The position numbers and the translations under genes were made by a program. Source: Nitrospirota bacterium (GTDB lineage: Bacteria > Nitrospirota > UBA9217). From it: a DNA stretch of 41,995 bases. How positions within the stretch are numbered: the stretch's first letter is position 1; each line of letters starts with the position of its first letter. A model generated the notes under the pieces. The model saw only the letters and a program-made list of their open reading frames with translations, ran no database searches and was not told where the DNA came from. Location of the stretch: assembly GCA_035623825.1 (NCBI GenBank), contig DASPSR010000055.1, forward strand, positions 1 to 41,995, read 5' to 3'. Shown one piece after another: positions 32,880-38,836 of this stretch.

Positions 32880-34130
32880 CTAGCTCGCCCGGGAGTGGAA
32901 ACGGCGTCTGTGAGGATTTGGATGGCGGGGCGCGGCGAGTCGTTCCCTGTCGCTCTTCTGCTTCTCTTCGGCGGTCCTCCGGATCTCCCGGACGTACATG
33001 CTCTCGTCGGCCCACTCGACGGGGATCTTCTGGCCGATGTACTTTTCGATGTCCTCCAGTGAATAGACGTACTCCTCGTCCGCGAGGCTCATGGCCTTGC
33101 CGGTCGCTCCGGCGCGGCCGGTTCGGCCGATGCGGTGCACGTAGTCTTCGGCGTCCTGGGGCAGGTCGTAGTTGATCACATGGGTCACGCTTTCCACGTG
33201 AATGCCGCGGCTCGCCACGTCGGTGGCGACAAGGACCGGGAGCTTGCCTTCTTTGAAGTCCGCGAGCAGCCGCAGCCGCTTCTTCTGCACGATGTCGCCG
33301 GTGATGGCCGCTGCTCTCCATCCGTTGCGGCTCAGGCGCTCGACGACCATGTCGGCGGCGCGGCGGGTGTTCACGAAGATGAGGCTGCGCTCCGGCGCTT
33401 CGTGTTTGAGGATGCCGAGCAGGAGGGATATCTTCTCATGCTTCCCCACGTGATAGAGGACCTGTTCCACGCGCTCCACGGTGACCTTCTCGGGCGTGAT
33501 CGAGATCTTTTCAGGGAGGTTCATGTGCTCGTAGGCGAGTTCCATGACGCGGTATGACAGCGTTGCGGAGAAGAGCATGGACTGGCGCTTGGTGTAGGGC
33601 GGCATCTTCCTGATGAGGTACCGAAGGTCGTCAATGAACCCCATGTCGAACATGCGGTCCGCCTCATCGATGATCAGGTAGCGGGTCTTCTTGAGGCTGT
33701 AGATGCGCTGCTTGTAGTAGTCGATCAGCCTACCCGGGGTGCCGATCAGAACGTCGACCCCCTTTTGAAGGGTGACCATCTGCTTCTGGTAGTCGATGCC
33801 CCCGTAAACGGCGAGGAAGCGGAAGCCCGTGAACCTGCCGAGCCGTTCTGCTTCGTGGTAGATCTGGTCCGCGAGCTCGCGGGTCGGCGCGATGATGAGG
33901 GCCTGCGGAGAGTTCCCCAGGTCTTGGACCGGGTTTCTGATCATCCTGGCGAAGAGCGAGATGAGAAAGGCCGCGGTCTTGCCCGTGCCCGTTTGCGCCT
34001 GCGCTGCTATATCTTCACCGCGTACGGCGCGGGGTATCACCGCTTCCTGCACCGGGGTGCACACGGTGAACCCCGCGTGGTCGATGCCCTGTCTCACTTC
34101 GTAGGGCAGATCCAATTCACTGAAGTTCAT
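32880..34130 (-). CDS. rhlB: DEAD-box RNA helicase (RhlB-like)
   Basis: Q motif, AQTGTGKT, PTRELA, TPGRL, DEAD, SAT and HRIGRTGR. Confidence 0.9.
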   Translation of the reverse strand: MNFSELDLPYEVRQGIDHAGFTVCTPVQEAVIPRAVRGEDIAAQAQTGTGKTAAFLISLFARMIRNPVQDLGNSPQALIIAPTRELADQIYHEAERLGRFTGFRFLAVYGGIDYQKQMVTLQKGVDVLIGTPGRLIDYYKQRIYSLKKTRYLIIDEADRMFDMGFIDDLRYLIRKMPPYTKRQSMLFSATLSYRVMELAYEHMNLPEKISITPEKVTVERVEQVLYHVGKHEKISLLLGILKHEAPERSLIFVNTRRAADMVVERLSRNGWRAAAITGDIVQKKRLRLLADFKEGKLPVLVATDVASRGIHVESVTHVINYDLPQDAEDYVHRIGRTGRAGATGKAMSLADEEYVYSLEDIEKYIGQKIPVEWADESMYVREIRRTAEEKQKSDRERLAAPRHPNPHRRRFHSRAS

Positions 34131-34605
34131 ACATCTCCGATCGTTGTTGAGGACAATATGTCAACGAACTGTGTGGCCTAGTATACCATAAGTGTCATGG
34201 CGAGACAAAGAGAAATTATGTCCCGCCGTCCTTGTGGAGCGGCGCAGGCGTTCGAAGGTTGACTTTTTAGTCGCATGCTCGAACAGAAAAACATGAATTC
34301 TCCAAAAGGGAAGCAGAGCGCCGCGGCGCCCGAGCCGGCCGGTCGTCCGGAAGATACAGGCAGGGAGAGGAAATATGCCGCCTTTTGAAGGGAAATTCTC
34401 AAAAAAGTAATTTGGGTATCACCATTTATTTTTTGATGCATTTTTCCTGCTGCTGTTTGGTCTCCACCCGGTCCCGGACGGTGTACCAATAAAAATTGGA
34501 AATGCCATAGATTAACCATTAATTTTTTGACCACTATTATTTGCGTCGATTCTGCTGTTGATAAATTGTCTAACCCATCGAAAAATAATTTTTTAATTTT
34601 TCCTG

Positions 34606-34635
34606 TTGACAAAACATACACTCTTGTTGTATATT
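34606..34635 (+). promoter_or_regulatory. Sigma70 promoter with AT-rich upstream region
   Basis: TTGACA-18 nt-TATATT. Confidence 0.7.
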
Positions 34636-34654
34636 TGTCCACGAGGTGAACAAA
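34634..34654 (+). promoter_or_regulatory. Putative autoregulatory operator overlapping the start site and RBS
   Basis: Inverted repeat TTTGTCCAC-GAG-GTGAACAAA (one mismatch) directly before the GTG of a wHTH protein. Confidence 0.55.
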
Positions 34655-34655
34655 A

Positions 34656-35222
34656 GTGCTGACAAAACTCTTCTCTTCTACGAGAGCGGAGCTTTTAGGC
34701 CTGTTCTTTAACAATCCGGATGACAAGTTCTACTTAAGAGAGATCGCGCGTCACATCGGAAAAGATGCGGCGGGGATCAAGCGGGAACTGGACAACCTGG
34801 TCAAGATCGGGCTTCTGGCAAAAGAGAAGCGGGGAGTGCAGAAATACTACTTCGCGAATAAAAGCTCTCCCATCTTCTCGGAGATGAAGGGGCTCATCTT
34901 CAAGACCACGGGAGTGCAGGGCGCAATGAAGACGTCGCTGTCCCGGTTGAAGGGCGTCAAGACAGCGTTCATCTACGGTTCATTCGCGAAAGGATCGGAA
35001 AAAGAGGACAGCAACATCAATCTCATGGTGATCGGCCAGGCGAACATCACGGAACTGAATGACATGGTGATGGGGCTGGAAGAAAAGCTGAAGAGGGAGA
35101 TCGATTATCTGGTCTTCGACGAGCTGGAATACCGGAAACGCAAGGACTCCAAGGACCCGTTCATCCGAGAGTTACTGAAAGGCAAGAAGATTTTCCTGGT
35201 AGGCAGGGAAGATGAATTATAA
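34656..35222 (+). CDS. ArsR-like wHTH fused to a minimal nucleotidyltransferase (MNT) domain, with catalytic DxD replaced by NxN
   Basis: LFSSTRA...YLREIAR...IKRELDNL wHTH; YGSFAKG...SNINLMVIG where the family has SDIDL. Confidence 0.88.
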   Translation: MLTKLFSSTRAELLGLFFNNPDDKFYLREIARHIGKDAAGIKRELDNLVKIGLLAKEKRGVQKYYFANKSSPIFSEMKGLIFKTTGVQGAMKTSLSRLKGVKTAFIYGSFAKGSEKEDSNINLMVIGQANITELNDMVMGLEEKLKREIDYLVFDELEYRKRKDSKDPFIRELLKGKKIFLVGREDEL

Positions 35223-35697
35223 TGCGCTCAAAGAAATGGGGATCGTTGAGGAACGTACCGCCGAGATCGCCGAGGTCATCGCGCTGGTGACGCGGGCGGA
35301 ACGGGACTTGGCAACAAGCAGGCTTCTGCTGGACAAGGATGTTGAGTGGGCGTTTGTTGCCTCCTATCAGGCAATGGCCCGTTCAGCGAGGGCGCTCATC
35401 CTGTCCGAGGGGTTCAGGCCCAAGGGGGTCAGGAGCAGGGATGCGCACAAGACCGTGGTAACGGCGTCGGGCGTCATCCTCGGGGAACAGCACAAGAGCA
35501 TGATCAACAAATTCGACCGCATGCGCAGAAAATACCAAAGCTTCATGGAAGAGGCAGGACGCGTCATATCCAAGTACGAGGCAGGACAGGCGATAAAGGA
35601 CGCCGAGGAGTTCCTCGCCTTGGTGAACGGCAGGATCAAGGAAAAGTACTCGCAGATGTCCTTGCTGAATGATGTCCCTCAGCTTGTTTCAAGATAA
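35212..35697 (+). CDS. HEPN-domain protein
   Basis: AERDL, YQAMARSARAL...GFRP...H, DRMRRK and AEEF pattern; overlaps the MNT gene. Confidence 0.85.
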   Translation: MNYNALKEMGIVEERTAEIAEVIALVTRAERDLATSRLLLDKDVEWAFVASYQAMARSARALILSEGFRPKGVRSRDAHKTVVTASGVILGEQHKSMINKFDRMRRKYQSFMEEAGRVISKYEAGQAIKDAEEFLALVNGRIKEKYSQMSLLNDVPQLVSR

Positions 35698-35744
35698 GGC
35701 CGCTTGAGTAAAAACGCGGTATGCCGAAAGGGGGTGGACAAATA

Positions 35745-35804
35745 ATGGCAGCCAAGAAGAAGGCCAAGAAGAAGGCAAAGAAGAAAGCCACCAAGAAGAA
35801 GTAG
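35745..35804 (+). CDS. Lysine-rich microprotein 1 (MAAKKKAKKKAKKKATKKK, 19 aa)
   Basis: GAAAGGGGGTG RBS 8 nt before ATG; 12 Lys; TAG stop. Confidence 0.75.
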   Translation: MAAKKKAKKKAKKKATKKK

Positions 35805-35833
35805 CTTTCATACGGTGTCCCAAGACGCGGGAC

Positions 35834-35863
35834 CGCCGGGGGCTTGATGCCCCCGGCGTATTT
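35834..35863 (+). terminator. GC-rich hairpin after microprotein 1 (weak terminator, attenuator or stabiliser)
   Basis: CGCCGGGGGC-TTGAT-GCCCCCGGCG followed by TATTT. Confidence 0.55.
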
Positions 35864-35953
35864 AAGACAACCCATCACCACGACCGATGTGCGGGCTTCA
35901 TACATAATCTCATTTTCATCCTTATATCCCATGATGAAAGGGGGTGAAGATAC

Positions 35954-36010
35954 ATGGCGACGAAGAAAGCCCCGGCAAAAAAGGCGAAAAAGACCACAAA
36001 GAAGAAATAA
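35954..36010 (+). CDS. Lysine-rich microprotein 2 (MATKKAPAKKAKKTTKKK, 18 aa)
   Basis: Same GAAAGGGGGTG RBS 7 nt before ATG; 9 Lys; TAA stop. Confidence 0.75.
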   Translation: MATKKAPAKKAKKTTKKK

Positions 36011-36061
36011 CTTGGCCCGGCCCTCACAGGTCATAGAGTCCGATGATGGCATTGAAGCTCT

Positions 36062-36093
36062 ACCACGAAGAAGGTCTTCGTGGTTTTGTTTTT
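36062..36093 (+). terminator. Rho-independent terminator
   Basis: ACCACGAAGA-AGG-TCTTCGTGGT followed by TTTGTTTTT. Confidence 0.85.
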
Positions 36094-36163
36094 GAGAAGC
36101 GGATATACGGATGCGGCGCATTCTCCCTGCAGGAGGGCCTGCGCGGCGAAAGAAGACAGCACC

Positions 36164-36490
36164 ATGCGTAAACGGAACTACATGAAGGTTCAGCGCAGTC
36201 GCAGGACCGTGGGCAGGAAAAGAGTGCTCTTCGCGGCAGGTATCCTTCTTGCCCTCTATCTTCTGACGTCGTACACCCTGGGCGAAATGGGGCTGGTGAA
36301 GTATTACCGGATGAAGGTGCAGTATAACGCTCTCACCGAAGAGATCGCGACGCTCAGGCAGGATAACGCCAGACTGATTCGCGACGTCCACGCCCTCAAG
36401 ACCGACCCCGCCTGCATCGAGAGGATCGCACGGGATGAACTGGGACTTGCGCGGCAGGGGGAGATAGTGTACTATTACGACAAGCCCTGA
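36164..36490 (+). CDS. ftsB: Septum formation initiator FtsB/DivIC family
   Basis: One TM, GEMG, a coiled coil, and IERIARDELGLARQGE. Confidence 0.85.
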   Translation: MRKRNYMKVQRSRRTVGRKRVLFAAGILLALYLLTSYTLGEMGLVKYYRMKVQYNALTEEIATLRQDNARLIRDVHALKTDPACIERIARDELGLARQGEIVYYYDKP

Positions 36491-36631
36491 AGGGAATAAC
36501 CCCAAACCGTAAGTTCCAGGGTGCTAATAATCAATGAGGAGGAGCGCACGGGCGCGTTCCGGCGACAGTTTACTGGTGCTTTGGGACTGCCTGCAATCTG
36601 ATTCCTTAAGCGTGATCATTCTCCTTAGGCC

Positions 36632-38836
36632 ATGTCCGACTATCCCCTCTCCATAGCCTTCGTCTGGCATATGCACCAGCCCTATTATAAGGATGATATC
36701 ACCGGCTCCTACATCCTCCCCTGGGTGCGCATGCACGGGATCAAGGACTATTACGACATGCCCGCGCTCCTGAACGATTTCCCCGACATTCATCAGACCT
36801 TCAATCTCGTCCCGTCCCTGCTGAAGCAGATCCAGGACTACGTGGACAATGACGCCACGGACAAGTTCCTCGACCTCGCGCTCAAGCCGGCAGACGACCT
36901 CACGCATGACGAAAAGATTTTCTTGCTTCGAAACTCCTTCATGGCCAACTGGGACACCATGATCAGGCCGTACCACGGATACTGGCAGCTGCTCGACCGG
37001 CGCGGCACCAGCGTCTCGCCCATCGACCTCCAGAACGCAACACGGTATTTCACGACACAGGACTACCTCGACCTCCAGGTCTGGTTCAACCTGACCTGGT
37101 TTGACCCGCTCTTCAAGCAGACCGATCCATTCCTCAAGGGGCTCATCGAGAAGGGGACGGAGTTCACCGAGGAGGAGAAGGCCCTGCTCATCCAGAAGCA
37201 GCGCGAAATCATGGCCCTCATCATCCCGGGATACCGCCGGCTCGCGGAGCTGGGCAGGATCGAGCTCACGACCACGCCCTTCTATCATCCCATCTTGCCG
37301 CTCCTGTACGATACGGACATCGCGAAGGAGGCCTCGCCGGACATCCGCCTCCCCAGCGCCCGCTTTGCCCATCCTGAAGACGCCAAGGCACAGACCGATC
37401 GCGCGATCCAGTACCACGAGAAGCTTTTCGGCTCACGGCCCGCGGGCATGTGGCCCGCGGAAGGGTCTGTGGCGGAGGAGATCATCCCGCTCCTCGCCGG
37501 CGCGGGTATCAGGTGGATCGGGACGGACGAGGGGGTGCTCGCCCGCTCGCTCGGTATTCACATTGATAGGGACTTTGGCGGAGTGATGAAGAACCCGGAG
37601 GTACTCTACACGCCGTATCTTGCGGGAAAGGGCGAGACGCGCCTCTCCGTTGTGTTCCGCGATCACACGCTCTCGGATCTCATGGGATTCGTGTACTCCA
37701 AATGGGATTACAAAAACGCCGTGCACGACCTCATCGCCCGGCTCCAGCGCGTGCGGAAAAGCGTCGCCGACGCACCGCACCTGGTCTCTATCATCCTTGA
37801 CGGCGAGAACGCCTGGGAGTACTACCAGAACGACGGCAGGGATTTTTTCCTGTACCTCTATGAACGCCTGAGCGGGGAGCCGGGCCTCCGTTGTGTGACC
37901 GTGGGAGAGTACCTCAAGGAGCACCCGGCGCGGGCGAGGATCGAACGGCTCCACGCGGGCTCATGGATAAACGCGAATTTCCGGATATGGATCGGCCATG
38001 AAGAGGACAACCGGGCGTGGGACCTGCTCTCGCAGACCAGGGACGCCCTCACGGATTATGCATCACGGGACGGCGATCCTGAAAAGATCGCCAAGGCATG
38101 GGAAGAGATCTATATCGCCGAGGGCAGCGACTGGTGCTGGTGGTACGGGGATGATCACTTCTCCGAGAACGACGAGGAGTTCGACCTTCTGTTCAGGACG
38201 CACCTGATGAACGTCTACCACATGATCGGCCAGGATGTGCCGGACGAGCTCCAGATATCCATCCTGCGCGAGGACCGGCAGGCGCTGCCCACGGTGGAGC
38301 TCACCGCGTTCATCACCCCCACGATCGACGGACAGGTGACCAACTATTTTGAATGGCTTTCCGCGGGATTCTACGACGTGAGCCAAGGCGGGGAGACCAT
38401 GCACCGCGGCACCTCCATCATCCAGCACATCTATTACGGCTTCGACCTGAAGAACATGTTCATCAGGCTCGACCCGAGCCAGAGCCTCAAGGACGAAAAG
38501 GTGTCGGACCTGGCGTTCTTTATCAATTTTTTGAACCCCAAGGGGATGGACGTGGAAATAAGGGTCGTGCCGCAGGAAAGGCGCGTGAGCGCCGTGCTTT
38601 TCCGCGGGGAGAACAGCTCGCGGAAGCAGGCCGCCGTGATTCACACTGTGGCCGCCAACGAGATCCTCGAGCTCGCGCTGCCCTTCGATCTGCTCGGTAT
38701 GAGGCCGAACGACGAGATCCAGATGTTCGTGACCGTGGAGCGTTCAGGTTCCGAGGTCGAGAAGTGGCCGTTCCGCGGGTATATTCAGTTCAAAGTGCCG
38801 ACCGATGATTTCGAAGCCATGATGTGGCAGGTGTGA
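36632..38836 (+). CDS. Glycoside hydrolase family 57 (amylopullulanase-like)
   Basis: WHMHQP, HPILPLL, GMWPAE, ILDGENAWE, GSWI and AEGSDWCWW. Confidence 0.93.
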   Translation: MSDYPLSIAFVWHMHQPYYKDDITGSYILPWVRMHGIKDYYDMPALLNDFPDIHQTFNLVPSLLKQIQDYVDNDATDKFLDLALKPADDLTHDEKIFLLRNSFMANWDTMIRPYHGYWQLLDRRGTSVSPIDLQNATRYFTTQDYLDLQVWFNLTWFDPLFKQTDPFLKGLIEKGTEFTEEEKALLIQKQREIMALIIPGYRRLAELGRIELTTTPFYHPILPLLYDTDIAKEASPDIRLPSARFAHPEDAKAQTDRAIQYHEKLFGSRPAGMWPAEGSVAEEIIPLLAGAGIRWIGTDEGVLARSLGIHIDRDFGGVMKNPEVLYTPYLAGKGETRLSVVFRDHTLSDLMGFVYSKWDYKNAVHDLIARLQRVRKSVADAPHLVSIILDGENAWEYYQNDGRDFFLYLYERLSGEPGLRCVTVGEYLKEHPARARIERLHAGSWINANFRIWIGHEEDNRAWDLLSQTRDALTDYASRDGDPEKIAKAWEEIYIAEGSDWCWWYGDDHFSENDEEFDLLFRTHLMNVYHMIGQDVPDELQISILREDRQALPTVELTAFITPTIDGQVTNYFEWLSAGFYDVSQGGETMHRGTSIIQHIYYGFDLKNMFIRLDPSQSLKDEKVSDLAFFINFLNPKGMDVEIRVVPQERRVSAVLFRGENSSRKQAAVIHTVAANEILELALPFDLLGMRPNDEIQMFVTVERSGSEVEKWPFRGYIQFKVPTDDFEAMMWQV

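What the first reader, a model, noticed from the sequence alone, without database searches (positions are those of the whole stretch)
35726..36010. Tandem histone-H1-tail-like microproteins (19 and 18 aa) with identical strong RBS
Seen: both ORFs are preceded by the same 11-mer GAAAGGGGGTG at 7-8 nt spacing, begin MA, end TKKK, use only K/A/T/P after Met, and are each followed by a hairpin. They differ at the DNA level (11 AAG + 1 AAA versus 5 AAG + 4 AAA), which argues for selection on the peptide and not a simple DNA repeat. Established: AKK/PAKK repeats bind DNA in histone H1, Hc1/Hc2, AlgP and HupB tails. Inference: stand-alone minimal DNA/RNA or polyphosphate-condensing peptides, or small ribosome-associated basic peptides, below gene-caller size limits.
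Basis: partly seen in the sequence, partly recalled or inferred. Interest (0 to 1): 0.8.

Follow-up and report, generated by a model that had tools for sequence, protein, structure and literature searches.

The report
Conserved tandem lysine-rich microprotein genes
Two tiny genes (19 and 18 codons) in an uncultured Nitrospirota genome encode lysine-rich peptides kept by selection, and they look like shrunken versions of a histone-H1-tail-like protein gene that always sits beside one regulator-like gene.

Summary
ORF1 (35745-35804, MAAKKKAKKKAKKKATKKK) and ORF2 (35954-36010, MATKKAPAKKAKKTTKKK) each follow GAAAGGGGGTG, an 11-mer found only twice in the 3.24 Mb genome. Both ORFs, with ribosome-binding site, ATG and stop, are kept in every uncut syntenic locus of the family. 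Variation is codon-periodic: variable sites at positions 1/2/3 are 4/17, 1/17, 17/17 for ORF2 and 1/19, 1/19, 13/19 for ORF1. So the peptides are under purifying selection. RNA-library contigs of four studies hold them.

New here: a K/A/T-rich ORF of 13 to over 100 codons with a strong ribosome-binding site follows the homologous wHTH-nucleotidyltransferase-like gene. This holds in 20 of 20 loci from 13 other families, and in G257. The microgenes are therefore miniaturised, duplicated positional orthologues of a variable-length H1/HC2-like low-complexity protein. Relatives of a long orthologue are almost all PF07382 (HC2) tails on HU, topoisomerase, SWIB and some ribosomal proteins.

Function (polyanion binding and condensation) remains inferred. 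Ribosomal, module-component and leader-peptide readings are less likely. I rate it a new variant of a known kind.

The parts
34656..35222 (+). wHTH + nucleotidyltransferase-like gene (188 aa; PDC-M05A-like). It is the conserved upstream partner of the K-rich ORFs.
   Evidence: Pfam Polbeta/NTP_transf_2 and HVO_A0114 wHTH. PADLOC PDC-M05A E 9.1e-55. Single-copy homologue in 83 of 201 phylum genomes. The G257 homologue is 41% identical, E 3e-44. The window protein has SNINL where the family's carboxylate motif would lie.
35212..35697 (+). HEPN-domain gene (161 aa; PDC-M05B-like), lying between the NTase-like gene and ORF1.
   Evidence: Pfam HEPN E 1.2e-11. PADLOC PDC-M05B E 3.8e-17. Present at this position in f1, f2, f6 and f14 loci and absent in the other families examined.
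35726..35736 (+). Shine-Dalgarno region of ORF1 (GAAAGGGGGTG).
   Evidence: Invariant (0.000 bits) over positions -19..-9 in 18 distinct sequences.
35745..35804 (+). Micro-ORF 1: 19 codons plus TAG, MAAKKKAKKKAKKKATKKK.
35817..35858 (+). Double hairpin after ORF1: GTCCC-loop-GGGAC, then CGCCGGGGGC-loop-GCCCCCGGCG, with a weak T tract.
   Evidence: Fold -33.1 kcal/mol, z -4.28. Stems kept with variable loops across loci. RNA contigs join ORF1 to ORF2 across it (table 5).
35936..35946 (+). Shine-Dalgarno region of ORF2 (GAAAGGGGGTG).
   Evidence: GGGGGTG or GGAGGTG variants in relatives.
35954..36010 (+). Micro-ORF 2: 18 codons plus TAA, MATKKAPAKKAKKTTKKK.
36062..36094 (+). Intrinsic-terminator-like hairpin: ACCACGAAGAAGGTCTTCGTGGT followed by TTTGTTTTTG.
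   Evidence: CCACGAAG-loop-CTTCGTGGTTTT found by regex in 19 of the 23 full-flank genome-contig loci and visible in all 18 loci printed.

Best explanation
These are two real, translated, paralogous microprotein genes. Each has a very strong ribosome-binding site. They are probably transcribed together, possibly with the upstream HEPN gene, and the transcript ends at the strong terminator after ORF2. The products would be 18 and 17 residues if the initiator Met is removed. They carry 12 and 9 lysines and no acidic residue. I read them as intrinsically disordered polycations that bind cellular polyanions electrostatically: chiefly DNA and/or RNA, possibly polyphosphate. They would neutralise or condense these like the C-terminal tail of histone H1 or the lysine-rich tails of bacterial HU and Hc2. 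In evolutionary terms they are miniaturised, tandemly duplicated versions of one variable-length K/A/T/P-rich low-complexity protein gene. That gene sits immediately downstream of a wHTH-nucleotidyltransferase-like gene in at least 15 families of Nitrospirota. Shown: existence, conservation, peptide-level purifying selection, presence in RNA libraries, positional orthology to long H1/HC2-like proteins. Inferred: translation itself, the binding targets, and any regulatory tie to the wHTH protein.
For: Conservation:
- Both ORFs with SD, ATG and stop are present in 19 of 20 family loci; L005 is cut at its contig end.
- They are present in 23 of 25 named MAG loci; the other two are cut.
- They are present in 56 of 80 metagenome loci; most of the rest end too early.
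- The KKAPAKKAKK coding pattern occurs exactly once per genome in 59 of 64 family genomes, in 0 of 337 genomes of 43 other families, and 0 times as a reversed control.

Coding selection:
- Variable sites at codon positions 1/2/3 are 4/17, 1/17, 17/17 (ORF2 type) and 1/19, 1/19, 13/19 (ORF1 type).
- Entropy in ORF2-type sequences is 0.11, 0.02 and 0.74 bits, against about 1.7 bits in their flanks.
- Twelve distinct DNAs encode the identical ORF2 peptide and 15 the identical 20-aa ORF1-type peptide.
- All 669 Lys codons are AAG or AAA, while Ala third positions use all four bases (A 88, C 102, G 77, T 19).

Expression signals:
- The 11-mer SD is unique to these two genes in the genome.
- RNA-library contigs of 4 of 4 laid runs cover ORF1, and 3 of 4 cover ORF2.
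- Some contigs run from the HEPN 3' end into ORF1, and some join ORF1 to ORF2.

Orthology to long forms:
- In 20 of 20 loci from 13 other families, and in G257, the homologous wHTH-NTase-like gene is followed by one to three K/A/T-rich ORFs.
- These are 13 to 108 aa (157 aa in f12), with strong SDs, often the same AAAGGGGGTGA.

Kinship of the long form:
- 60 of 61 hits to the 108-aa orthologue carry PF07382 (HC2).
- About 25 of them are HU tails. Others are on topoisomerase I, SWIB and ribosomal proteins.
- One 70-aa stand-alone protein is named 'histone H1-like repetitive region-containing protein'.
- The nearest named ESM Atlas cluster is HC2, but at 0.84 it is a lead only.
Against: There is no direct evidence of translation: no Ribo-seq and no mass spectrometry. 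RNA contigs cannot exclude DNA carry-over, cannot rank expression, and sum lysine-rich sequences of other organisms (tool cautions). No profile match: Pfam and NCBIfam return nothing for the 20-, 30- and 74-aa forms even at E up to 10, and PDB sequence searches return nothing. Kinship to H1/HC2 therefore rests on composition and position, and low-complexity similarity may be convergent. The genome already has HU, spermidine synthase and a longer protein with an AKKK tail, so no missing function points to these peptides. K-rich tails also occur on ribosomal proteins, so RNA or the ribosome could be the target rather than DNA.
Confidence: 0.5

Rival explanations
1. The K-rich peptides are a functional part or target of the wHTH-nucleotidyltransferase-like (plus HEPN) module. 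One version: the wHTH protein controls their transcription. Another: the peptides act with or against the HEPN or NTase-like proteins as a third component of a PDC-M05-like, type VII toxin-antitoxin-like cassette. This can coexist with polyanion binding.
For: The gene pair wHTH-NTase-like then K-rich ORF is kept in f1, in G257 and in 20 of 20 loci from 13 other families, while other neighbours differ. The NTase-like gene is single copy and vertically distributed. RNA contigs run from the HEPN 3' end into ORF1. The proteins match PDC-M05A and PDC-M05B.
Against: Linkage alone does not show a shared function. PDC-M05 is described as two genes with its antiviral role unconfirmed (passages read in PMC12988326). 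The NTase-like domain lacks conserved carboxylates: SNINL in the window protein, and only one acidic residue in most relatives. An enzymatic modification of the peptides is therefore unlikely. HEPN is absent from most families that keep the pair.
Confidence: 0.15
2. They are lineage-specific ribosome-associated microproteins, analogous to bS22, bL37 or Thx, which fill rRNA grooves.
For: Size, extreme basicity, very strong SD and terminators are typical of such genes. Tiny basic ribosomal proteins were long overlooked in other phyla (search listing and abstracts). K-rich tails occur on bL17-like, bL21 and uL30 proteins.
Against: Positional orthologues range from 13 to 108 aa, with one to three copies per locus and repeat-number changes. 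That does not fit one fixed rRNA pocket. There is no arginine or aromatic residue. No sequence match to any PDB chain.
Confidence: 0.12
3. They are regulatory leader ORFs whose translation, not product, matters. Examples: Lys-tRNA sensing or attenuation of downstream genes.
For: They are short and Lys-codon-rich, and each is followed by a hairpin.
Against: Non-Lys residues and peptide termini are conserved. The stretch between the ORF2 stop and its terminator is not conserved. The Thr codon that could pair with the terminator's 3' arm varies at its third base. Downstream genes differ between families: ftsB here, other genes elsewhere. Orthologues reach 108 aa.
Confidence: 0.05
4. The conserved element is a non-coding RNA, for example an A-R-N-rich Hfq-binding sRNA, and the ORFs are incidental.
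For: AAG/AAA repeats followed by a U-tailed terminator resemble Hfq-binding features. That resemblance is recalled knowledge, not tested here.
Against: Variation has a 3-nt period. Lys third positions are only A or G, while Ala third positions vary freely. ATG, SD and stop are kept throughout. No Hfq (PF17209) was found in the genome, which is 89.65% complete. There is no Rfam match at E up to 1.
Confidence: 0.03

Closest known systems
Bacterial histone-H1-like lysine-rich repeat proteins and tails (Pfam PF07382 HC2; Chlamydia Hc2, lysine-rich C-terminal tails of HU, Pseudomonas AlgP)
   Same: The K/A/P/T low-complexity composition with AKK/PAKK-type repeats is shared. So is repeat-number plasticity (Hc2 size variation: abstract of PMC2848022). 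Hits to a long positional orthologue almost all carry PF07382, including a stand-alone 70-aa 'histone H1-like repetitive region-containing protein'. AlgP ties such tails to polyphosphate granules (title and abstract of PMC9239181).
   Different: Here the protein is nothing but the tail, only 13-22 residues long in f1, f2, f4, f6 and f14. It occurs in one to three tandem copies, each with its own strong SD. It is absent from annotation, gives no profile match, and is always next to a wHTH-NTase-like gene.
Small basic ribosomal proteins bS22 / bL37 / Thx
   Same: They are very short, very basic, long overlooked, and highly expressed as stand-alone genes (listing and abstracts; sequence features recalled).
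   Different: Those have fixed lengths and specific, Arg-containing sequences. These are Lys/Ala/Thr repeats of variable length and copy number, with no PDB match.
PDC-M05 / type VII toxin-antitoxin-like nucleotidyltransferase + HEPN pairs
   Same: The two genes directly upstream match PDC-M05A (E 9.1e-55) and PDC-M05B (E 3.8e-17). The architecture is as described in PMC12988326 (passages).
   Different: No K-rich third gene is part of that description. In this phylum the A-like gene is single copy and vertically kept, often without HEPN. Its NTase motif is degenerate.

Membership tests
Histone H1-like repetitive / HC2 (PF07382) | Lys/Ala/Pro/Thr-rich low-complexity repeats (AKK, PAKK, TKKK) | tested here: met
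   Read directly from the peptides. After Met the residues are only K, A, T, P, with rare S or V in relatives.
Histone H1-like repetitive / HC2 (PF07382) | Significant match to the family profile | tested here: inconclusive
   Pfam returns 0 families at E up to 10 for the 20-, 30- and 74-aa forms. The window's 18/19-aa peptides are below the tool's 20-aa minimum. However, 60 of 61 hits to the 108-aa positional orthologue carry PF07382.
Histone H1-like repetitive / HC2 (PF07382) | Binds and condenses DNA (or other polyanions) | not testable with these tools
   Needs synthetic peptides or in vivo work.
Ribosomal microproteins (bS22, bL37, Thx) | Fixed-length, sequence-specific peptide conserved across the lineage | tested here: not met
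   Positional orthologues are 13 to 108 aa, with one to three copies per locus.
Ribosomal microproteins (bS22, bL37, Thx) | Sequence similarity to a chain of a solved ribosome | tested here: not met
   phmmer against all PDB chains gave 0 matches at E up to 10 for 20-aa and 30-aa forms. Low complexity limits this test.
Ribosomal microproteins (bS22, bL37, Thx) | Physical presence in purified ribosomes | not testable with these tools
   No cultured member and no structure.
Leader-peptide attenuators | Alternative terminator/antiterminator pairing overlapping the ORF, and a conserved regulated gene downstream | tested here: not met
   The spacer between the stop and the terminator is not conserved, and the candidate pairing codon varies at its third base. 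Downstream genes differ between families.
Type VII TA MntA/HepT (PDC-M05-like) module, for the two upstream genes | Adjacent nucleotidyltransferase and HEPN genes | tested here: met
   Pfam and PADLOC PDC-M05A/B. NCBIfam MntA scores only 26.6 bits against a cut-off of 60.
Type VII TA MntA/HepT (PDC-M05-like) module, for the two upstream genes | Catalytic G[SG]...DxD carboxylates of the nucleotidyltransferase (motif recalled, not from a call) | tested here: not met
   The window protein reads YGSFAKGSEKEDSNINL. Of 14 aligned homologues, only one has two acidic residues at the DxD-equivalent positions.
Hfq-dependent sRNA | Hfq present in the genome | tested here: not met
   PF17209 was not found in G000, which is 89.65% complete. 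The control rang in 5 of 14 genomes.

The most novel reading that the evidence does not exclude
Stand-alone oligolysine-like peptides of 13-22 residues are a genuine, selected class of bacterial nucleoid or RNA counter-ions ('encoded polyamines'). Their dose is set by tandem gene copies. Together with the catalytically degenerate wHTH-nucleotidyltransferase-like protein (and HEPN where present) they form one conserved functional cassette: the wHTH protein senses or controls the polycation supply, or the peptides modulate the HEPN RNase.
Probability: 0.15. Interest if true: 0.85.

Novelty: new variant of a known kind. Interest (0 to 1): 0.62.

Why it matters
If made, these would be among the shortest conserved, non-hydrophobic bacterial gene products: pure polycations of 13-22 residues under clear purifying selection. 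They escape gene callers and profile libraries. They would show that the histone-H1-tail principle (unstructured Lys/Ala/Pro/Thr repeats that neutralise polyanions) can be encoded as a free-standing micro-gene whose length and copy number evolve quickly. That gives a simple, synthesisable system for testing how cells use encoded polycations alongside polyamines, HU and polyphosphate. The conserved pairing with a wHTH-nucleotidyltransferase-like gene, classed as a candidate defence or toxin-antitoxin component, is an unexpected lead for both fields. It is also a clean benchmark for small-ORF discovery by codon-periodic conservation.

Tried and rejected
- Rfam on 34000-37500 at E up to 1: no family.
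- Sigma-70 promoter scan of 35300-36500: 0 sites. Anchored comparison of 110 nt upstream of ORF2 in 33 distinct sequences: no conserved promoter. Only a recurrent GGCTTCATA in some.
- Attenuator model: rejected, see rivals.
- Antisense 289-codon frame at 35636-36505: an open frame on the opposite strand spans the region in only 5 of 19 loci. The ORF1-ORF2 span varies by non-multiples of three. I treat it as a by-product of CTT-rich sequence.
- Upstream in-frame starts (MPKGGGQIM..., MMKGGE...): not conserved across loci.
- Phyletic complementarity: spermidine synthase PF01564 is in 23 of 24 family genomes and 12 of 16 others; HU PF00216 is in 41 of 41. No loss could be offset by the peptides.
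- Hfq/sRNA idea: no Hfq in G000.
- Profile and structure-sequence libraries: nothing.
- The search for homologous proteins with the 74-aa G257 protein, 'shorter': 4155 word candidates, none at E <= 0.01.
- Exact look-ups: of 8 family forms, only a mis-started 26-aa form is on record. Of 10 longer orthologues, none is on record.
- ESM Atlas: the 30-aa form is held letter for letter. The nearest clusters are unnamed 22-, 31- and 40-aa 'hypothetical proteins' with 721, 114 and 53 members. I treat these as leads only.
- Complex prediction of the G257 wHTH-NTase-like protein with its 74-aa K-rich neighbour: verdict 'no answer', score 0.00. This is not evidence either way.
- Viral-contig scan with the NTase alignment: no relative.
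- The metagenome scan returned almost only family-f1-like loci (79-99% identical), so it did not extend the linkage beyond the phylum. Of its 80 loci, 16 showed no ORF and 8 only one. Most of these end less than about 700 nt after the NTase gene. L170 has full flank but my filter required ATG.
- Parts of the stretch without RNA-contig cover (35873-35914, 36020-36040): no conclusion drawn.
- Literature: searches found no description of stand-alone 13-22-aa lysine-rich bacterial microproteins. Search 65 and the passages mention no K-rich partner of PDC-M05. Supplements were closed and might hold such lists, for example small-ORF catalogues.

Full report
**What is there**

The window (contig C37 of a 3.24 Mb, 53% G+C, 89.65%-complete genome) carries the two ORFs exactly as described.
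- ORF1 is at 35745-35804, MAAKKKAKKKAKKKATKKK, stop TAG.
- ORF2 is at 35954-36010, MATKKAPAKKAKKTTKKK, stop TAA.
- Each ORF is preceded by GAAAGGGGGTG, 8 and 7 nt upstream of its ATG.
- That 11-mer occurs only twice in the whole genome, both times here. The shorter AAGGGGGTG occurs 24 times and AAGGAGGTG 42 times.
- From general knowledge, AAGGGGGTGA can pair with the conserved anti-SD over about ten positions with one G-U pair. The 16S 3' end is not in this assembly, so I could not check this.

Structures downstream:
- ORF1 is followed by a very stable double hairpin at 35817-35858 (-33.1 kcal/mol, z -4.28) with a poor T tract.
- ORF2 is followed by a classical terminator-like hairpin at 36062-36084 plus TTTGTTTTTG.
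- No Rfam family matches.

Neighbours:
- Upstream lie a wHTH + nucleotidyltransferase-like gene (34656-35222) and a HEPN gene (35212-35697).
- Downstream lie an FtsB/DivIC-like gene (36164-36490) and a GH57-like ORF.
- A DEAD-box helicase gene lies on the other strand.

**Whose genome**

Homologous loci in the species-representative collection are titled as uncultured Nitrospirota/Nitrospirae MAGs. One, labelled Betaproteobacteria, is 80% identical and is probably a mis-binned contig.

**Conservation**

- The locus is syntenic in 24 of 24 other genomes of the same family, f1.
- In 19 of the 20 loci fetched, both micro-ORFs are present with SD, ATG and stop. L005 is cut at its contig end after ORF1.
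- Both are present in 23 of 25 named MAG loci; the other two are cut.
- Both are present in 56 of 80 metagenome loci; most others end too soon.
- The DNA pattern for KKAPAKKAKK occurs exactly once in 59 of 64 f1 genomes. It occurs in none of 337 genomes from 43 other families of the phylum, and the reversed control gives none.
- In-frame upstream starts are not conserved, so the starts are 35745 and 35954.
- A long open frame on the opposite strand is present in only 5 of 19 loci and is an artefact of CTT-rich sequence.

**Selection is on the peptide**

Anchored comparisons:
- ORF2 type (18 distinct sequences): variable sites at codon positions 1/2/3 are 4/17, 1/17, 17/17. Entropy is 0.108, 0.018 and 0.740 bits. 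The flanks, outside the SD, are at about 1.7 bits.
- ORF1 type (18 distinct 20-codon sequences): variable sites are 1/19, 1/19, 13/19.

Codon usage:
- Twelve distinct DNAs encode the identical ORF2 peptide, and fifteen the identical MAAKKKAKKKATKKKATKKK.
- In 61 distinct sequences all 669 Lys codons are AAG (451) or AAA (218). Ala codons use all four third bases (88 A, 102 C, 77 G, 19 T).
- The filter in that script allowed only M, A, K, T, P, S and V. The looser lysine-fraction filters returned the same sets.

This pattern excludes a mere DNA repeat and a purine-repeat RNA motif.

**Expression**

Twenty-one RNA-library runs from many studies held a small share of the stretch's sampled words. 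I laid four runs from four studies.
- RNA contigs cover about 35621-35810 in all four runs and about 35930-36015 in three.
- Some contigs run from the HEPN 3' end into ORF1. Examples: an 89-nt contig at 35677-35764 with 2 other letters, and a 427-nt contig covering 35600-35761.
- Some contigs join the end of ORF1 to the start of ORF2. These are two X1 contigs at depths 31 and 86.9, and one X7 contig.

This fits transcription of ORF1 and ORF2 on one RNA that reads through the first hairpin. The caveats are the tool's own: contigs cannot rank expression, DNA carry-over is possible, and lysine-rich sequences of other organisms are summed.

**Annotation status**

- Of 8 forms of 20 aa or more from this locus and its relatives, 7 are absent from a 15-billion-protein collection. 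The eighth is a mis-started, unnamed 26-aa form.
- Pfam, NCBIfam and PDB sequence searches give nothing.
- The ESM Atlas holds a 30-aa relative letter for letter. Its nearest clusters are unnamed peptides of 22, 31 and 40 aa (721, 114 and 53 members). The nearest named cluster is HC2 at 0.84, which is a lead only.

**The wider family and a conserved neighbour**

- The KKKAKKKA coding pattern is almost confined to f1: 48 of 64 genomes, against 1 of 337 elsewhere.
- The exception, G257, has a stand-alone 74-aa pure (A/T)KKK protein. It has the same SD (GAAAGGGGGTGAAG) and a strong terminator.
- That gene lies 109 nt downstream of a 180-aa protein that is 41% identical over its full length (E 3e-44) to the window's wHTH-NTase-like protein. 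There is no HEPN gene between them, and the other neighbours are unrelated.
- The wHTH-NTase-like gene is single copy in 83 of 201 phylum genomes. It is present in f1 (44/44), f2, f4, f6, f11-f15, f20 and f22-f26. It was not found in f3, f5, f8, f9, f10, f16 or f17.
- I fetched the downstream DNA of 20 non-f1 homologues from 13 families. All 20 have one to three K/A/T(P)-rich ORFs with strong SDs directly after the gene, or after a HEPN gene in f2, f6 and f14.
- Their sizes are 13 and 14 aa (f4), 15+16 (f14), three of 17-18 (f6), 19-29, 34, 54, 66, 74 and 108 aa, and a 157-aa form in f12. Nearly all begin MA(T/A/V)KK and end in a lysine run.

So the window's two ORFs are the miniaturised, duplicated state of one fast-evolving low-complexity gene whose only constant neighbour is the wHTH-NTase-like gene.

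**What the long forms resemble**

The 108-aa orthologue finds 61 proteins at E <= 0.001.
- 60 carry PF07382 (histone H1-like HC2).
- About 25 are tails on HU.
- Others are on topoisomerase I zinc-finger regions, SWIB, ribosomal bL21 and uL30, phasin and MetJ.
- One is a 70-aa stand-alone 'histone H1-like repetitive region-containing protein'.

The genome itself has a Cys-rich protein with an approximately 50-aa AKKK tail.

**The upstream pair**

- The two upstream genes match PADLOC PDC-M05A (E 9.1e-55) and PDC-M05B (E 3.8e-17).
- PDC-M05 is described as a nucleotidyltransferase + HEPN candidate defence or TA-like pair whose antiviral role is unconfirmed (passages of PMC12988326).
- The NTase-like domain here lacks the usual carboxylates: SNINL in the window protein (the motif is recalled). 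It is more likely a DNA-binding or scaffold protein than an enzyme.

**Interpretation**

- Best reading (0.5): translated polycationic microproteins that bind DNA and/or RNA (possibly polyphosphate) electrostatically. They are the H1/HC2-tail principle reduced to a free peptide.
- A tie to the wHTH(/HEPN) module is a compatible and more novel layer (0.15).
- A ribosomal role (0.12) fits poorly with the length and copy-number variation.
- Leader-peptide (0.05) and non-coding RNA (0.03) readings are contradicted by the conservation pattern. Hfq was also not found.
- HU and spermidine synthase are present as in other families, so there is no complementary loss.

**Verdict**

This is a real and unannotated feature, and a new variant of a known kind. 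Interest is 0.62. Function is still inferred.

Noticed in passing
G000:C67:3314-3379 (-), outside the window; relatives L046-L057: A third lysine-rich micro-ORF, MACGKKCGTKKTTTKKTAKKK (21 aa). It has a perfect SD (GAGGAGGTGA) and a strong terminator. The MACGKKCG start, with synonymous changes, is found in 24 of 64 family genomes (8 of 19 genera). A similar KKCGG/KKCGC motif opens the 157-aa K-rich gene beside the NTase-like gene in f12 (L090).
   Followed up: partly
G000:C13 about 280900-281400 (+); L061-L069: A conserved Cys-rich protein (...RVCGRKIDVTRTGDVYEEPVYCCG...) carries an approximately 50-residue AKKK/AAKK C-terminal tail ending in RR. It accounts for most extra KKKAKKKA hits in family genomes.
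   Followed up: partly
window 34656-35222: The nucleotidyltransferase-like domain of the wHTH protein has SNINL where the DxD-type carboxylates are expected. Only one of 14 aligned homologues has two acidic residues there. This suggests a catalytically inactive fold in a single-copy, vertically inherited gene that PADLOC classes as PDC-M05A.
   Followed up: partly
window 36062-36094 and relatives: The terminator stem sequence CCACGAAG / CTTCGTGG plus TTTTGTTTTT is nearly invariant across genera, while its loop and both flanks vary freely. The same holds for CGCCGGGGGC / GCCCCCGGCG after ORF1. Such sequence-level conservation of stems is more than a terminator needs.
   Followed up: no
window 35802-35804 and 36008-36010: Stop codon choice is conserved by type: TAG in 29 of 31 distinct ORF1-type sequences, TAA in 25 of 30 ORF2-type sequences.
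   Followed up: no
window 35677-35682: RNA-library contigs of three studies (X1, X7, X17) begin at 35677-35682, inside the last codons of the HEPN gene. The DNA there (CAGCTTGTTTCAAGATAA) is unusually conserved. This could be a transcript 5' end or merely an assembly break.
   Followed up: no
L059, L060 (G257): In another family, a SWIB-like protein has an N-terminal AKKK/VKKK run, and a bL17-like protein has a long K-rich C-terminal extension.
   Followed up: no
G000:C53 about 20069 (-), G000:C13 about 260016 (+): Other very short ORFs sit behind perfect AAGGAGGTG sites: MTIRKVSKKMATTCKCKSSC (20 aa) and a 34-aa ORF. Their conservation was not examined.
   Followed up: no
L042: A contig titled Betaproteobacteria carries this Nitrospirota-type locus (HEPN 80% identical, both micro-ORFs present). 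It is probably a binning error.
   Followed up: no
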